Source: Microbotryum violaceum (taxonomy: Eukaryota). Taken from it: a stretch of 64,000 nucleotides of DNA. Below, piece after piece: positions 47,333 through 56,054 of the stretch. How positions within the stretch are numbered: position 1 is the stretch's first letter; each line of letters opens with the position of its first letter. A program made the position numbers and the translations under genes. The notes beneath the pieces are model-generated. The model had not been told where the DNA came from. It did no database searches and saw nothing but the letters and a program-made list of their open reading frames with translations. The stretch covers positions 2,418,001 to 2,482,000 of the forward strand of contig CDLV01000005.1 in NCBI GenBank assembly GCA_001244265.2. The letters run 5' to 3'.

Positions 47333-49253
47333 CTACATCCTCCCCAACGCTTCAACTTCCTCGTACCCATCCATCTCCCCATCGCTGACCGCCTTCCACC
47401 CCTCGACATCCGAAGCCCAATCATCATCACTCCCCACCCCCTCCTCACCCACCTTATCCGTCTCCTCATCCTCCAAGTCCATCAACCCCTTCTTCACCCT
47501 GTTCACGCCCGCTGAAGGACCTTTCAACAAGTCATCGACCGTTCGGTCCCTTGCCAACATGCGTTTGGAGGCTGTCTTCTTCATGGGTGAAGATCGGAGG
47601 GAGAGTATCGAGGCCAAGTCTTCGGGTAGGGCTTCGTTGGCTTGGTCTTGATTGTGCCAGGTCGGAGCGTCTTCATCCATCGATGTGGTCGGAATCGATG
47701 ATGACGGTGGTGGTGTGCGCCTCGCATAAATCAAGGACCCTGTCGCAAGCACCAACTCATCCTCTTCCCCCTCCTCCATCTTGCTCGTCCCCGCTCCGCC
47801 GACCCCCTCCCCAGTCGACCTAATCACAATCCTGTGTTGTTCCTCGTCGTCCAAATCGATAATCAACATCGAACCGACTCTGCTCATTTTGCCGATCCGA
47901 TCCGAAACTGCTTCGTCGGAATCGCCGTCGTCGGAATCGACCGCCATTGTCGTCGAACCTTTCTTGGGAGGAGCTTTGCCGCCAAGTATTTTCTTATACC
48001 TCAGCCCTGCCGGCGCACGTTTAGGCTTCTTGTTGCCCTTCTGACCATTCGTACCGGCGGAACCACGTTCCCCCTTATCCCCGCCGTCCTCATCCTCGTC
48101 GTCCTCCACCAATTCGGCTCCTTCGTACCCCGTCCTCTTGACCGCCTTCAGCGTCGGATGCACCGCCTTCCTCAACCACCCATCCATCGCTCCTCCCTTC
48201 TTCCCCGGTTCATCGTCCTCCTTCTTTTTCCGTTTGCCGTTCCGTTTGCCATCCGCGCCAGAGGCAAGGAAAGGATTCTTCATACTCGCCTCGTGCTCTT
48301 CATCTTCGTCGTGATCGAACAAGGGAACGAACGATTTGCGCTTGGTCGCATCGTTCTTGACGGGACTTTCTCCCAACATCTCTTGATCTTCGTCGTCGTC
48401 GTCTTCTACTAGCCCACCCGACTTTCTTCTCGCCGCACCGAACAACTGCCCTAACCGGACATTGCTCCTCTTGAACGCTTCCTCCCCGCCGCTCAACTTG
48501 ATCCTTTTAGTAGGTGAAGCGGTCGTACCCTCCCTAGCGAACGGGTTATACTTTCTCGGACTCTCCAACTTTGTCTGAGCGAATAAATCTTGCGCGAAAG
48601 TTGTTTCCTTCTTCGATTGTGACTGACGATGGTTTGGTGAACGACGAGGGGAGAACGAAGCGGCTAAATCGCGCATCTTGTTCGGCGAGTGCGCGTGGAC
48701 ATAATTTGGATGATTCGAATTGGTGGTTGTTGTTGTTGTGATTGGTGCAAAGCTCAAGTTGGGGGTTGCAGGACGAGTTGATTGGTTTCGTTGAGGAGTG
48801 ATGGAGGAGGGCGTGGTTGTGGATGGACGAGGTTTTTGGGGGGTTTGAAAGAGGGTTTCTCCGCTGGTGGTTGGAAAAGTGGAGGTGGTGGGCGATCTTT
48901 TAGAGGTATTCGAGGAGGAGGAGGCAGTGGTGGTGGTGGTGGGGTTGGGTTGGGTCTTGAGCTTTTGGTACAACTTGTATTTCGCCGCTGAGCAAGACGA
49001 AAAAAAAAGTCAGTTTTTGGAGTTTGGACCCGGCATCAGAGACGATCACAGCAGGAAGAGAGCCACACGCCCTAGATGGCAGCCAAGAGAGGAGCTGCTT
49101 TCACTCACCTATCGCAATATCGTTCTTGATATCCTGTTTGGTGGGATCGGTTCCGTTGTGGGTACGACGGAATTGGTTCTCCCATGCTTTGAGCTCGAGC
49201 TTGAGCGAGGCCCGCGCGGAGTCACGCGCAGAGTCGGAGGAGGTGGGAGGCAG
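47333..49253 (-). CDS. SLD2: DNA replication regulator Sld2/Drc1; no in-frame ATG found, CTG start proposed
   Basis: LKLELKAWENQFRRTH...PTKQDIK...IA|AKYKLYQKLK across intron 48988-49108 (Sld2/RECQL4 N-terminal motif); many S/T-P CDK sites; LGESPVK. Confidence 0.8.
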
Positions 49254-49450
49254 GTTGGGCAGAGGGGGAGGGGGAGGGGGAGGGGGAGATGGAGGGTTGG
49301 GAAAGGGGTGGGTCGGAGTATGGAGTGGGGCGGTGGATGTGGAGAGAAGCAGCAGACGAGCGGGTCGACGCGGCCGGGGAATGGGAATTGGAATCGGCGA
49401 TCGCTTGCGCTTTCGCTCATGTCTTGGCGTCGGTTACAGTCGATCCCGGA

Positions 49451-50700
49451 ATGGGGTGAGTGTGTCCTACATGGTCAGCTCTCGCTTCGTACTGCATCTA
49501 ATCCTGTCTACCGTGTGCCACTCTGGATACCGGTCACAGCGCGTCGAAAGCTTTTGTGGAGCGCGTATGGCAGGTCAGTGAACGATCCACCGTCCCAGTG
49601 AATCAGTTGATCCGACATCTCCTACTCTGTACCCTTCCCCACAGAGCTTCCTCAAGAACGCCGGCCACGACGCCAACTCGTTCGGACACCTCAAGGTGAC
49701 CCAGGTCCCTAAACCGGGCGTCGTCGAGGCCGAGATGGTGGTGAAGCAGCATCAGAGTCAGTTTCACTAGACAGCTTCACCAATCAATTTGAGGCTGATC
49801 CAGGCTGCTCTCTTGTTTTCTTTTTTGGGGGTCCTATCTGTCGTGCGATGGTCTCGTTCGCGGCTTCACCTTTCACCCCCACATCCCCCCCCCCACCTTT
49901 TCAATCCTCCGTCTCGGCTGGCATCCCCACGTTACTGATCCCGCCTTCCATACCCGTGGGATAGTCAACCGAGTCGGCGTCAGTGATCGATCCCACCATC
50001 GAATCTGCGGGTAAAATCCACTCATCCCCTACCAAGCTTCTACCGTTCACCACAGTCCCTCCACGGTGGTCTCACCTCGTCCCTGGTCGATTCGATGGGT
50101 TCCCTCGCGCTTTCAAGCAGGGGGTTATGGATGACCGGCGTTAGTACGGATATCAACGTCACGTGAGTCGCAAGCACACCTTGGAGCGTTAGGGAATTTG
50201 GTTCTTTTGAGGAATGTAAAAGAGTTGGGGTGGGCAGCTGATGGGAAAAGAAAACCTTTTCTCCCGACACCCCTCACTGCAGGTTCGTCCGCGCCGCTCC
50301 GTTAGGTGAAACGGTCAGATTACAAGCTCAAGTGATCGGACAAGGTAAACCCACCATACCAACTTTTCTTCCCCACCTCCCACCTCCCACCTCCCACCTC
50401 CCACCTCCCACCTCTAATTTCCTCCCGCGTCCCACCTCTAATTTCCTCCCGCGTCCCGTACGTTGACAGGTAAAACACTCGCCTACACGCGCGTCGAAAT
50501 GTTCTCCACCAAGACGGGCAAGTTGCTCGCCTACGGTACGTCGATTCTATAACATCTTTGAAGGAGCAAACAAGCCTGATCATATCGACTTTCTGATTCT
50601 GATCATATCCCCAGGCTCACATACGAAATACATCGCTTTGGCGTTAAAGTCCGAGCAAAACGTCAAGTTTTCGGAGGATGGGGAGACACAAGTAGAGTAA
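49451..50700 (+). CDS. Hotdog-fold acyl-CoA thioesterase (ACOT13/THEM2, PaaI-like), many short exons
   Basis: NRVG|SLHGGLTSSLVDSMGSLA, TGVSTDINVT|FVRAA, GKTLAYTRVE, GSHTKY; TAA 50698-50700. Confidence 0.88.
50372..50454 (+). repeat. (CCCACCT)x6 overlapping a 24-bp duplication in a thioesterase intron
   Basis: 7-mer array 50372-50413; CCCACCTCTAATTTCCTCCCGCGT at 50407-50430 and 50431-50454. Confidence 0.9.
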
Positions 50701-52393: not shown

Positions 52394-55300
52394 ATGCCAC
52401 CGCCCGCACACACGCCCGTCGCGCCTCCGCGAGAACGTCCCGGCCCGGCCGAACTGCCTACCGAACTGCTCCAACTCGTCGATTCGCTCTCCGTCCGTTT
52501 CGACGACTTGTTCCAATTCCAACTGCCCCAATTGAGTCATTGCGATGGGCCGATGCAGCAGCATGAGGCGCTCGTCGCCGGCTTGAGGAACGAGTTGAAT
52601 GCGATCAAGAGGGATGTCGAGGTCCGTCATCGGGTTCGAGTCTGACTATCGTACATGCTTTAACCTCGACTCTTTTCCTAACCGAAATGCACCGCTTTGT
52701 CCGACGTGCACACACTCGCTCAGGAACTCAAACTTCAAGTCGACGACCTCGACAGGGCACGCGATCGAAGGGCCGGATTGCAACATGTTCAACACGTACA
52801 ACAACTATTCGACGCGTACGTACCCACCTTCACTCTGCACAGAACTCTCTCTCTAACTCTCCCTTTCCAACTCCCCCCCCCCACCCCATCCACCATCACA
52901 GCGTCTCGAAGCAATACCGAGCCGCCGTACTCGCGTCCAAGAAACTGATCGACCAAGCTCGACCCATGACGGGCAGGGAAGAATTGTTCGCTTCGACGAA
53001 CAGCAAAGCCGCATACCCCACTCGGAGTCAAGGCTTGCAGCCCAAGTCTCCGATGATGGGACAGGGGAGGGGAGCGGCCGATCAATCGTCAGTTCTTCGT
53101 TGGGGAACCTGATCTTAGTTCCTGTGCTCATTCTGATTCCTTCCCCACCCAGTGCCGACGACGCCCTCATGTCCGCCACCTCGGACGTGACCGAAGGGCT
53201 GCGTCGCACTCTCCAACTGATGCAAACCGAAGTCGACCGTTCGGTCCTGACCAACGAAGCCCTAGAACAACAAACCTCGACCTTGCAAATGACCAACGAA
53301 TCCTACTCGACCTTATCGTCCCTGCTGAACGTCTCCAAAGCCTTGATTACCTCCTTGGAGAAGGCCGATTTCTTGGATAGGTTGATCCTCTTGGCCGCGT
53401 TGGTGTTCTTCGGCTTGTGTTGCGCTTACGTTTTCAAACGAAGGGTCGTCGATAAAGGTGTTCGAGTCGCCGGTTTGATGGGTCAAATCGTAGGGAGAAC
53501 CAGTCAAATTTCGGGCAAGCTGTTGGAGAGAGTCGTCCCCGGTGGTGCAGACAGTTTGGATAAATGGCTACCCTCGACCTCGACGGGTGGGAACGGGGGA
53601 GAAGAAGGTACGATCGCCCAAGTTGTCGACAAGGTCGGTCCTATGGTCAAGAAGGTCGGGCAATTGGTCAAGAGGCATGGGAGTGAAGTCGTGATGACGA
53701 TCATCACCACCGTCGGGGCTCTGGCAACGCAGGGGCAGAACTTTGTGATCGCGAAAATGAACAACGGGACGATGGCCGCCGATGACGATGACGATGACGA
53801 TGATGATGATGACGACGATGATGAGGAGGATGAGGAGGAAGAGGACGCATCGGTCGTCAACACGATATTGCACAAGGGTGACAAGGAGAACAAAACGGCC
53901 GAACCTGTTTTAACAATCAAGGAGGAAGTCGAACCTCAGACCGAGCAATGGGTTAGTAAGGAGGAGGCGCCTGCAGCGATCGTCGTTGAGGAGGCGAACG
54001 TACCCAAGGAGGCTGTCTCGATCCCTCCTTCCGAAGTGGAGGTGGAGAACAAGGTGGAGGAGGTCAAGGAACCGGATCCGGAGCCCGAGAAGGTCGTCGT
54101 TCCTCAACAATCTGAGGACGACGACGAGGACGATGATGACGACGATAACGACGACGAGTTTGAACAAGAGGACATTGTCTTTGCGACGCTGGTCGAATCC
54201 GAACTCGTCAAGGATGACTCTGACTCGCCCCTTGAGGTCGAAACTCATGTCGAAGAGTCGAAGGATGTCCCCGTTTCGGACAACACGAACGCTCTACTCG
54301 AAGAGGAGATCACATCCGTCGAAGTGGCACCATCCGCGAAGGAGGACATTAACGAACAAGCGGAAGCACCTACAACGCCCGAGGTCAAAAAATCACTTTC
54401 TCAAGACGAAGAAGCCCTCGGCACCGCACCCGTCTCCGAAGCACCCGAACTCGTACCGGAAGAAACGACCCCCGTCGATGCGCCCATCGAAGCTTTCGAC
54501 GTTTCTCCTCCGACCGAAGTCGAGCTTGAACAACCCTTCGATCATGCATTCCCAGAGGTCGATGCGACGCCCATCACTGAAGTCGTAGAAGAAGCTCTTT
54601 CCCAAGATGAAGAAGCCCTCGACACCGCACCTGTCTCCGAAGCACCCGAACTCGTACTGGAAGAAACGACCCCCGTTGATGCGCCCGTCGAAGCTTTCGA
54701 CGTTTCCCCTCCGACCGAAGTCGAGCTTGAACAACCCTTCGATCATGCACCCCCAGAGATCGACGCGACGCTCATCACTGAAGTCGTAGAAGAAGCTCGA
54801 GCGCCTATCGAAGAATCCGAGGTCATGGAGGACATCGTTGATGGACGTGTGGAGATCGTCGAGCGTGTTCCGGTCGACGAGACGGCGACGATGGCGAGTG
54901 AATACCCACCTGCTCCTACGCCCGCTCAAGAACCTGTACTCGGTGCGACGACTGAGGAACCGGTTCATTTCGAAGCGACGCCTACACCACCACCTAAATC
55001 CGTCGTCGACGACGCGACCCAGCTTGAGGAGGAGACCGTCGATATCGATGCTACTGCCACCGCTCCCGCCCAAGCCGAGATTGAAGTCGAAGCTTGTTTG
55101 CCACTCGAGACTGGAACACTCAAAGCCGCCGCCGTGACCAGTGAGGAAGCGATGGACGACGCGTTCGACCTTCCTGGTGGCTCGGGGGAGTTTGGACATA
55201 ATGTGATGGGGGCCTATCAGAATGCGACTACGAATGCGGCGCCTGAACCTGAGATTGAGATTGAGGAGGCGGAGGAGGCGGAGGAGGCGGAGAAGGCGGA

Positions 55301-56054
55301 GCCGGTCGTCGTGGAGAAGTCGACATTATTCGATGCGGGTACTCAGGCCGCTGAGGTGGAGAAGGAGAAGGTCGAGGAAGCGCCTTCGCAACTCGACGAG
55401 GTCGTACCCACTCCTGGACCTGCTTCCGAAGTTATCGAGGAGGCCCCATCACCCGAAGAACAGTCCGAGAAGGTCTTTGATCCTCTCGAGCATCAAACCC
55501 CCCATCGACCTACTCGACACGTTGAAGATGCTCAACAACAGATCGAGGAGAACGTTGTCACTTTGGACGAGCCTCAAACAGAGGCTGAGGAAGCGGACGA
55601 CGATGACGAGGACGATAAAGAATCGGATCTTCTCAACTTAAATCTCGACGATGATGCCGATTTAGAAGCGATACTTGCACCTCCTATGACACCTTCGTCG
55701 ACGACAGCTTCGGAGGAACCCGCCATTGCTGAACCTGTACCCGCCGAGGCGGCTGTACCCAATGTTAAAGAGGCGGAGGAAGCGGCGGAAAAACCTGCTG
55801 CTCCGGGCTTTGTGGCTCTCCCTGTCGAGGATGTTGAGGTTGATGAGGCGCTCTTGCAAGCTGAGGAGACTGCGTCGGCCGAGGAGCACAAGCTGGCCCC
55901 GGAGGAAGCAGACCAAGACACGCTTGTGACGCCCACGACAACGACAGAAGAAGCCGAGCCTGCCGAGCCTGCACCTGCGGCAACAGTTGCTGAGGAATCT
56001 TCCACCGTGATCGAAGACGAGGAAGATGTGGACAGGGTCAAGGATGAGTTGTAG
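52394..56054 (+). CDS. SEC20: ER SNARE Sec20 with a very long acidic C-terminal extension ending KDEL
   Basis: REELF; SNARE-like ATSDVTEGLRRTLQLMQTEVDRS...LEQQTSTL...SKALITSLEKADFLDRLIL; TM followed by KRR; terminal KDEL. Confidence 0.85.
54396..54797 (+). repeat. 201-bp (67-aa) in-frame tandem duplication within the SEC20 tail
   Basis: Units 54396-54596 and 54597-54797, LSQDEEAL...TEVVEEA, with few substitutions. Confidence 0.92.

What the first reader, a model, noticed from the sequence alone, without database searches (positions are those of the whole stretch)
49109..49420. SLD2 appears to lack an in-frame AUG: candidate CUG initiation
Seen: the Sld2 frame (..SARASLKLELKAWE..) runs upstream without any ATG until a TAA near 49435. 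A CTG at 49253-49251 sits in the context cccaacCTGcct, matching real starts in this window (gccaacATGcca for SEC20, ccaacATGtct for the HAD gene), and would give MPPTSSDSARDSARASLK. The only nearby ATG (49420) is out of frame and about 30 bp from the divergent thioesterase start. Known: Sld2 is a limiting replication-initiation factor in yeast. Inference: near-cognate initiation may keep its level low.
Basis: partly seen in the sequence, partly recalled or inferred. Interest (0 to 1): 0.7.

Follow-up and report, generated by a model that had tools for sequence, protein, structure and literature searches.

The report
Replication gene starting without AUG
In an anther-smut fungus the single gene for the DNA-replication starter protein Sld2 has no normal AUG start codon in front of its most conserved part and most likely starts translation at a CUG codon instead, which would explain why database versions of the protein are cut short.

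Summary
The window is from a Microbotryum anther-smut genome. Its single SLD2 has a spliced first exon carrying the Pfam Drc1-Sld2 domain, but no in-frame AUG until codon 153. That domain is as conserved as in relatives (0.60 identity versus 0.61-0.65 among relatives), so it is almost certainly translated. All 26 annotated Microbotryomycete outgroups and 2 of 2 metagenomic loci start with Met just before the domain, whereas the records of 4 of 4 Microbotryum species start at the internal Met, where most outgroups have Leu. CUG 49253 is the only one of 11 in-frame near-cognate codons with a purine at -3, has a top-scoring start context (8 of 1792 CTGs; shuffle P 0.02-0.05) and is followed 14 nt later by a hairpin. 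Best reading: CUG is the start of full-length Sld2 (0.62). Not shown: the base at 49253 itself (masked in the read tool), the CUG in other species' DNA, the transcription start, translation. Rivals: an AUG micro-exon through a non-YAG acceptor, or an error or private allele. 'Keeps Sld2 low' is untested. New member of a known kind; I found no paper on it.

The parts
49251..49253 (-). Proposed CUG start codon of SLD2 (gives a 599-aa product)
   Evidence: only 1 of 11 in-frame near-cognates with a purine at -3; score 4.95. Base 49253 not verified by reads.
49254..49259 (-). Start context (-6..-1: cccaac)
   Evidence: 12 of 13 reference AUG starts have A at -3; this hexamer outscores all 13 leave-one-out reference scores; matched by 8 of 1792 CTGs.
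49254..49345 (-). C-rich, unstructured leader with no AG and no ATG; includes the low-complexity tract masked by the read tool
   Evidence: 59 C of 92 nt; 203 nt without AG from 49404 to 49202; 0 kcal/mol.
49206..49236 (-). Hairpin beginning 14 nt (inner 8-bp stem 18 nt) after the CUG; built from CGCG motifs
   Evidence: -14 kcal/mol, stronger than at 13 of 13 AUG starts, matched by 68 of 1787 CTGs; only z = -1.5 against its own shuffles.
49109..49253 (-). SLD2 coding exon 1 with the Drc1-Sld2 N-terminal domain
   Evidence: PF11719 32.3 bits (cut-off 28), E 1.2e-7; 71% identical to Pseudohyphozyma Sld2 over the matched stretch.
48988..49108 (-). GT-AG intron, 121 nt, phase 1
   Evidence: Spliced in run X15 (joint 48987-49109); intron at the same place in loci L022 and L023.
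47333..48987 (-). SLD2 coding exon 2
   Evidence: covered without letter differences by X5 and X15.
48674..48676 (-). First in-frame AUG (Met153), the start used by database models
   Evidence: Leu at this place in 23 of 26 outgroups, Met in none; weak context, score -1.5.
49183..49185 (-). First AUG downstream of the CUG: out of frame, good context, 54-codon ORF; would catch ribosomes that scan past the CUG
   Evidence: score 2.6.
49109..49420 (-). Out-of-frame AUG 49420 and its 103-codon ORF overlapping the CUG; a repressive uORF only if the transcript starts above 49420
   Evidence: no Pfam hit; not in the protein collection.
49434..49436 (-). In-frame TAA that closes the Sld2 frame upstream
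49467..49472 (-).
49423..49497 (-). Rival: ATG 49497 as a 5-nt exon, GT donor 49492, AAG acceptor 49423 (70-nt intron); would join in frame
   Evidence: not seen as a joint; comparable joins arise in 12-30% of 1000 shuffles.
49451..49756 (+). 5' part of the divergent thioesterase-like gene (ATG 49451, predicted intron 49456-49539, spliced intron 49574-49644)
   Evidence: only a weak 4HBT hit on a later exon (E 0.074, below cut-off), so the name is likely but not proven.

Best explanation
Microbotryum has lost the ancestral AUG that sits 2-6 codons before the Sld2 N-terminal domain in its relatives, and full-length Sld2 (599 aa) is initiated at CUG 49253, 16 codons before the domain motif. Inferred mechanism: the scanning 43S complex crosses an unstructured C-rich leader, meets a CUG in a near-ideal context, is slowed by a hairpin that starts 14-18 nt downstream, and initiates with Met-tRNAi at lower efficiency than an AUG. 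Ribosomes that miss it meet the out-of-frame AUG 49185 first, so little protein should come from the internal Met153. Shown: no in-frame AUG, spliced and transcribed exon 1, conserved domain, single copy, strong context, hairpin position. Inferred: that the CUG is used, that it is shared across the genus, its efficiency, and any purpose.
For: Pfam Drc1-Sld2 hits only exon 1, above the cut-off, and this is the only match in the genome. Intron spliced and exon 1 contiguous from 49109 to 49252 in RNA-like run X15. N-domain identity to 26 outgroups 0.60, against 0.65 among outgroups and 0.61 between orders; it is the most conserved segment of the protein (C-terminal block 0.42); the 152 residues before the first Met score 105.7 bits on an outgroup-only profile. 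26 of 26 annotated outgroups begin with Met 2-6 residues before the motif, and 2 of 2 metagenomic loci have ATG there and the same intron. Records of 4 of 4 Microbotryum species begin at the internal Met, including M. intermedium at 58% identity and a model from a 454 assembly annotated with strand-specific RNA-seq (PMC4469406, passages). No database protein of 85-2000 aa holding exon 1 was found. Context statistics, hairpin, no YAG acceptor after the TAA, no in-frame AUA for A-to-I editing.
Against: Base 49253 and the C-tract were masked, so an error or private allele is not excluded directly; the strong context fits a miscalled ATG equally well. No DNA of another Microbotryum species was obtained. 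The four truncated annotations may share a blind spot and are not four independent tests. The hairpin is not unusual against its own shuffles (z -1.5, 15 of 200), and I chose the fold window after seeing it. CGCG clusters also lie just before the ATG in L022 and L023, so the stem may be a leftover promoter motif. The context matrix rests on 13 hand-picked, highly expressed genes. RNA contigs are unstranded, give no start site, and also fail to show the predicted thioesterase intron 1, so missing joints upstream of 49300 mean little. A codon model did not separate leader from coding sequence here.
Confidence: 0.62

Rival explanations
1. A long leader carries an upstream AUG micro-exon that is spliced in frame through a non-YAG acceptor (best case: ATG 49497, donor 49492, AAG acceptor 49423), giving a roughly 75-aa Arg/Pro-rich extension. 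The reader's GC-AG variant from ATG 49420 to acceptor 49200 is a weaker form of this.
For: The join is in frame, removes both in-frame stops, has a plausible GT donor, a branch-like motif and a usual length of 70 nt. AUG micro-exons occur in this genome (L044; the predicted thioesterase exon 1). Mean 5' UTR is 183 nt in this species (PMC4469406, passage), so long overlapping leaders are possible. RNA cover is continuous over 49299-49570.
Against: Every join listed needs an AAG or GAG acceptor; comparable joins appear in 30% (12% with a branch-like motif) of 1000 shuffles. No such joint. No outgroup has more than 6 residues before the motif (26 of 26). Joins to 49200 or 49194 are contradicted by the contiguous X15 contig and would delete the Leu-Lys pair matched in 26 of 26 outgroups. 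It leaves the CUG's context as coincidence.
Confidence: 0.12
2. The CTG is an assembly error or a strain-private allele of an ordinary ATG.
For: The context is that of a good AUG start; the base was not verified; it borders a low-complexity tract where DNA contigs break (X5).
Against: Four species' annotations from other assemblies, one identical to the window over its first 291 residues, all miss exon 1, whereas 26 of 26 outgroup annotations found it. A hairpin stronger than at 13 of 13 AUG starts is not needed by an AUG. No database protein holds exon 1.
Confidence: 0.1
3. A one-base error in the C-tract hides an in-frame ATG 49420, or ribosomes from ATG 49420 shift -1 at a C CCU UUC heptamer (49307) into the Sld2 frame.
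For: The tract 49253-49298 is unverified; ATG 49420 has G at -3; two XXXYYYZ heptamers lie in the right phase (49307, 49304).
Against: X5 and X15 match the window without gaps from 49312 and 49299 upward; the same error would have to hide the gene start in four species; the 56-residue extension has no counterpart in outgroups and no Pfam hit; no stimulatory structure follows the heptamer.
Confidence: 0.07
4. The database models are right: Sld2 starts at the internal Met153 and the N-terminal domain is no longer made.
For: Four annotations use it; Microbotryum alone has Met at this position.
Against: The upstream domain is as conserved as in relatives, the frame is open for 152 codons across an in-phase spliced intron, the Met cuts through a conserved motif, has weak context (-1.5) and lies behind two out-of-frame AUGs.
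Confidence: 0.04
5. Initiation is non-AUG but at another codon (CUG 49262, 49352, 49355 or ACG 49430), or spread over several.
For: 11 in-frame near-cognate codons lie between the TAA and the domain.
Against: The other 10 all have C at -3 and scores of -0.8 to -6.5 against 5.0.
Confidence: 0.05

Closest known systems
Genes whose main product starts only at a non-AUG codon: eIF4G2/DAP5 (GUG) and TEAD1 (AUU) (PMC5666671, passages); Podospora IDI-4 (CUG, proposed, conserved in Neurospora; PMC5487733, passage)
   Same: No in-frame AUG before the conserved N-terminal part; a near-cognate codon in strong context; regulatory proteins.
   Different: Those starts are experimentally shown or conserved across species. 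Here the start is inferred, lineage-specific (relatives in the same class use AUG), and the gene is a core replication-initiation factor.
Fungal near-cognate N-terminal extensions: Neurospora cpc-1 (PMC5487733, passages), Cryptococcus LeuRS, ArgRS and eIF5 (PMC7049704, passages), yeast GRS1 and ALA1 (PMC5666671, passage), Ustilago 6-phosphogluconate dehydrogenase (PMC7214817, search listing only)
   Same: Near-cognate initiation in good context in fungi, basidiomycetes included.
   Different: There the non-AUG codon adds an extension or targeting signal to a complete AUG-started protein; here the AUG-started product would lack the family's signature domain.
Hairpin-assisted non-AUG initiation (Kozak 14-nt rule; PTEN-beta with a hairpin 18 nt downstream; PMC5666671, passage)
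   Same: Stem starts 14 nt (outer) and 18 nt (inner) after the codon.
   Different: Stability is moderate (-14 kcal/mol), not significant against shuffles, and its conservation is untested.
Sld2/Drc1 family (Pfam PF11719; RecQL4 N-terminus)
   Same: N-terminal domain above the Pfam cut-off, shared intron position, shared internal and C-terminal motifs with Microbotryomycete orthologues, many S/T-P sites, single copy.
   Different: 10-14 extra N-terminal residues and no AUG; Leu-to-Met change in a conserved motif; function not tested.

Membership tests
Sld2/Drc1 (PF11719) | N-terminal Drc1-Sld2 domain above the curated cut-off | tested here: met
   32.3 bits against cut-off 28; only match in the genome.
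Sld2/Drc1 (PF11719) | Orthology over the whole length with annotated family members | tested here: met
   shared N-domain, internal motifs, C-terminal block; intron at the same place in L022 and L023.
Sld2/Drc1 (PF11719) | Clustered CDK-type S/T-P sites | tested here: met
   6 sites before Met153 and 7 after; phosphorylation itself not tested.
Sld2/Drc1 (PF11719) | Binds Dpb11 after CDK phosphorylation and is needed for origin firing | not testable with these tools
   Known for budding yeast (PMC3116906, PMC13421386, passages).
Genes started solely at a non-AUG codon | No in-frame AUG between the upstream stop and the conserved coding region | tested here: met
Genes started solely at a non-AUG codon | Coding conservation upstream of the first AUG | tested here: met
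   (protein level, against 26 outgroups); no codon-level test was possible.
Genes started solely at a non-AUG codon | Near-cognate codon in strong start context | tested here: met
Genes started solely at a non-AUG codon | No spliced-in upstream AUG exon | tested here: inconclusive
   No joint and no YAG acceptor, but contigs drop rare forms and non-YAG joins exist on paper.
Genes started solely at a non-AUG codon | The codon is real (not an assembly error) and conserved in related species | tested here: inconclusive
   Base masked; no congeneric DNA found; only indirect support from truncated annotations.
Genes started solely at a non-AUG codon | Initiation shown by ribosome profiling, N-terminal peptide or mutagenesis | not testable with these tools
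Hairpin-assisted non-AUG start | Stable stem 14-18 nt downstream of the codon | tested here: inconclusive
   Position met; stronger than 13 of 13 AUG starts and matched by 68 of 1787 CTGs, but z = -1.5 against shuffles.

The most novel reading that the evidence does not exclude
The whole genus Microbotryum replaced the AUG of its only SLD2 by a CUG plus a downstream hairpin recruited from former leader sequence, as a selected device that caps the dose of a rate-limiting origin-firing factor and ties it to start-codon stringency; a longer transcript that includes the overlapping AUG 49420 ORF would switch it off further in non-dividing stages.
Probability: 0.22. Interest if true: 0.78.

Novelty: new member of a known kind. 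Interest (0 to 1): 0.56.

Why it matters
Genes whose full-length product depends on a non-AUG start are rare and poorly catalogued in fungi. A recent, lineage-specific switch from AUG to CUG in a single-copy replication-initiation gene would be a natural experiment on how such starts arise, because close relatives keep the AUG. It also offers a direct test of whether translation initiation can set the level of a factor that is limiting in budding yeast, where excess Sld2 raises chromosome rearrangement (PMC3116906, passages). Practically, the database proteins of four Microbotryum species lack the first 152 residues or so and with them the Pfam domain, so domain surveys would score the genus as lacking Sld2.

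Tried and rejected
Direct check of base 49253 by reads: the tool masked 49253-49298; no verdict. The run search listed no holder on record as RNA; X15 is called RNA-like only because its contigs are spliced. X16 and X18 do not cover the CUG region. DNA of other Microbotryum species: none found in metagenome contigs (the second gave 2 more distant loci), prokaryote genome contigs or viral contigs. Exon-1 query against longer proteins: 0 of 162 candidates scored (weak negative). Exact look-up of 6 window translations: 0 of 6 in the collection, so Logan-type gene calls of this organism are not there and the blank says little. Two ab initio attempts to collect true starts from 264 kb failed as too noisy (11 and 20 candidates without a -3 purine bias) and were not used; the Markov codon model did not resolve the leader-coding boundary. 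The genome-wide count of the AUG version of the context (86 against 65 for the reversed control) is uninformative. A regex census of acceptor types was noise and was dropped. A-to-I editing as the source of an AUG: no in-frame AUA exists; the Microbotryum editing paper mentions Sld2 only in a reference, and its one supplement held no match to the gene ids. A second SLD2 copy: none. Solved-structure search: RecQ4 N-terminus 2KMU only at E 1, not significant. No structure or complex was predicted, as neither bears on the start codon. Earlier scan findings were not available.

Full report
What the locus is. The window lies in a 33-Mb, 20-contig fungal genome. The product from the first in-frame Met is identical over its first 291 residues to Microbotryum lychnidis-dioicae MVLG_00359 (whose record then shifts frame) and differs at 5 of 447 positions from the M. 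silenes-dioicae record, so this is an anther-smut Microbotryum. The gene on the - strand has a first coding exon ending at 49109, a 121-nt GT-AG intron (49108-48988) and a second exon to the stop at 47333. Pfam Drc1-Sld2 hits exon 1 only (32.3 bits, cut-off 28) and none of the three Microbotryum database proteins scanned. It is the only match in the genome. The intron is spliced in run X15, whose contigs behave like RNA.

The observation. From TAA 49436 to the domain the frame holds no ATG; the first in-frame Met is codon 153 counted from CTG 49253. Missed were an in-frame ATG-TAG at 49472, an ATG at 49497, and an out-of-frame ATG at 49185 inside exon 1.

Is the part before the Met translated? 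Almost certainly. Against 26 annotated full-length Microbotryomycete orthologues (26 of the 29 hits; the 3 left out are exon-2-only calls from unannotated contigs), the N-terminal domain of the window is 0.60 identical, against 0.65 among the outgroups and 0.61 between orders; it is the best conserved segment (middle 0.27, C-terminal block 0.42). The 152 residues before the Met score 105.7 bits on a profile built from outgroups alone. The linker is less conserved than among outgroups (0.25 against 0.35-0.38). The internal Met falls inside a conserved motif where 23 of 26 outgroups have Leu and none has Met.

What do relatives do? 26 of 26 outgroups begin with Met 2-6 residues before the domain motif, and 2 of 2 metagenomic loci have an ATG there and the intron at the same place. 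In contrast the records of M. lychnidis-dioicae, M. silenes-dioicae, M. saponariae and M. intermedium (4 of 4 species found) all start at the internal Met. The first came from a 454 assembly annotated with strand-specific RNA-seq given the highest weight (PMC4469406, passages). This suggests a genus-wide loss of the AUG, but it is indirect: I saw none of their DNA, and the pipelines may share a blind spot.

Which codon? Of 11 in-frame near-cognate codons, only CTG 49253 has a purine at -3. I built a context matrix from 13 starts of histone and proteasome-alpha genes of this genome, picked by eye from 22 loci by N-termini that I recognised from memory (dropped: 4 duplicates and 5 with unclear starts); 12 of 13 have A at -3. 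The CUG scores 4.95, above all 13 leave-one-out scores, matched by 8 of 1792 CTGs of the window, and by 1.7-4.7% of 5000 leader shuffles. A purine at -3 is also the main feature in Cryptococcus (PMC7049704, section 15). The leader is unstructured, and a stem starts 14 nt after the codon (inner stem 18 nt), the spacing that favours non-AUG starts (PMC5666671, passage). It is stronger than at 13 of 13 AUG starts and matched by 68 of 1787 CTGs, but not unusual against its own shuffles (z -1.5; 15 of 200), and CGCG clusters also precede the ATG in both outgroup loci, so it may be an old promoter motif now inside the reading frame.

How it most likely works. Scanning ribosomes initiate at the CUG with Met-tRNAi (the usual case according to PMC5666671, passage), at reduced efficiency, giving a 599-aa protein with 16 residues before the motif. 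Those that pass meet the out-of-frame AUG 49185 (score 2.6, 54 codons) and another at 48702 before Met153 (score -1.5), so a short isoform should be minor. All of this is inference from sequence.

Results against this reading. The read tool masked 49253-49298, so the decisive base is unverified: X5 and X15 match without differences up to 49252 and again from 49312 and 49299. A good context fits a miscalled ATG equally well. Contigs are unstranded and give no start site; DNA contigs break in the same tract, so the break is technical. The X15 contig over 49299-49570 does not show the predicted thioesterase intron 1 either, so absent joints there are weak evidence. An in-frame join from ATG 49497 exists on paper (GT donor 49492, AAG acceptor 49423). 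All joins listed need AAG or GAG acceptors, no YAG follows the TAA, and similar joins arise in 12-30% of 1000 shuffles, but it is not excluded.

Purpose. In budding yeast Sld2 is limiting and its excess raises chromosome rearrangements (PMC3116906, passages); it is essential for helicase activation (PMC13421386, abstract and passages; I found no passage there on deleting its N-terminal domain). A weak start would fit, but so would drift in a gene needed at low level. Nothing here separates the two.

Comparison and novelty. It works like eIF4G2, TEAD1 or Podospora IDI-4 (sole non-AUG start), not like the common fungal case of an added targeting extension. As Sld2 it meets the sequence tests; as a sole non-AUG gene it meets three tests, two are inconclusive and one cannot be run here. 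In the library of open PMC papers and bioRxiv, 'Sld2' with 'non-AUG' gave 0 papers; none of the 25 papers listed for Microbotryum with non-AUG terms contained 'Microbotryum'; one search listed one Microbotryum paper with Sld2, in a reference only; searches gave nothing on this gene. Subscription journals are largely outside this library, and supplements were searched for one paper only.

Verdict. A real feature, probably a lineage-specific CUG start (0.62; any non-AUG start 0.67), new member of a known kind. Interest 0.56.

Noticed in passing
Database records P0001, P0002, P0003, P0005: All four Microbotryum Sld2 records lack the N-terminal domain; MVLG_00359 also ends early (314 aa) through a frameshift at a G run that is intact in the window, probably a 454 homopolymer error.
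   Followed up: partly
window 49456-49539 (+): Predicted first intron of the thioesterase-like gene (good donor, branch and CAG; 5-nt coding first exon) is unspliced in the RNA-like X15 contig although its second intron is spliced: intron retention, a very short first exon, or an overlapping antisense SLD2 leader.
   Followed up: partly
window about 49965-49978 (+): A micro-exon of about 14 nt of the thioesterase-like gene appears in the X15 loose end, joined to the exon near 50056 (read by eye).
   Followed up: no
window 49211-49230 (-); L022 3090-3115; L023 450-462: CGCG/ACGCG clusters, resembling MCB cell-cycle boxes (label recalled), lie just upstream of the Sld2 domain in all three; in the outgroups they precede the ATG, in the window they would be coding and form the hairpin.
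   Followed up: partly
window 49225 (-): An out-of-frame GTG aligns with the ATG of L022 in a three-way DNA alignment; possibly a relic of the ancestral start, possibly chance.
   Followed up: no
window 49253-49451: SLD2 and the thioesterase-like gene are head to head with under 200 bp between starts, about one mean 5' UTR (183 nt), so their leaders probably overlap.
   Followed up: partly
window 50360-50460: Short tandem repeats (7-nt units and a duplicated 25-nt unit) inside an intron of the thioesterase-like gene.
   Followed up: no
window 52857-56054 (+): The Sec20 domain (Pfam) is followed by about 800 residues of acidic, repetitive sequence in one open frame of 1065 codons, which looks unusually long for Sec20 (typical size recalled).
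   Followed up: no
P0006 and similar hits: Unnamed long proteins with up to 11 tandem copies of a motif like the Sld2/RecQ4 N-terminal domain.
   Followed up: no
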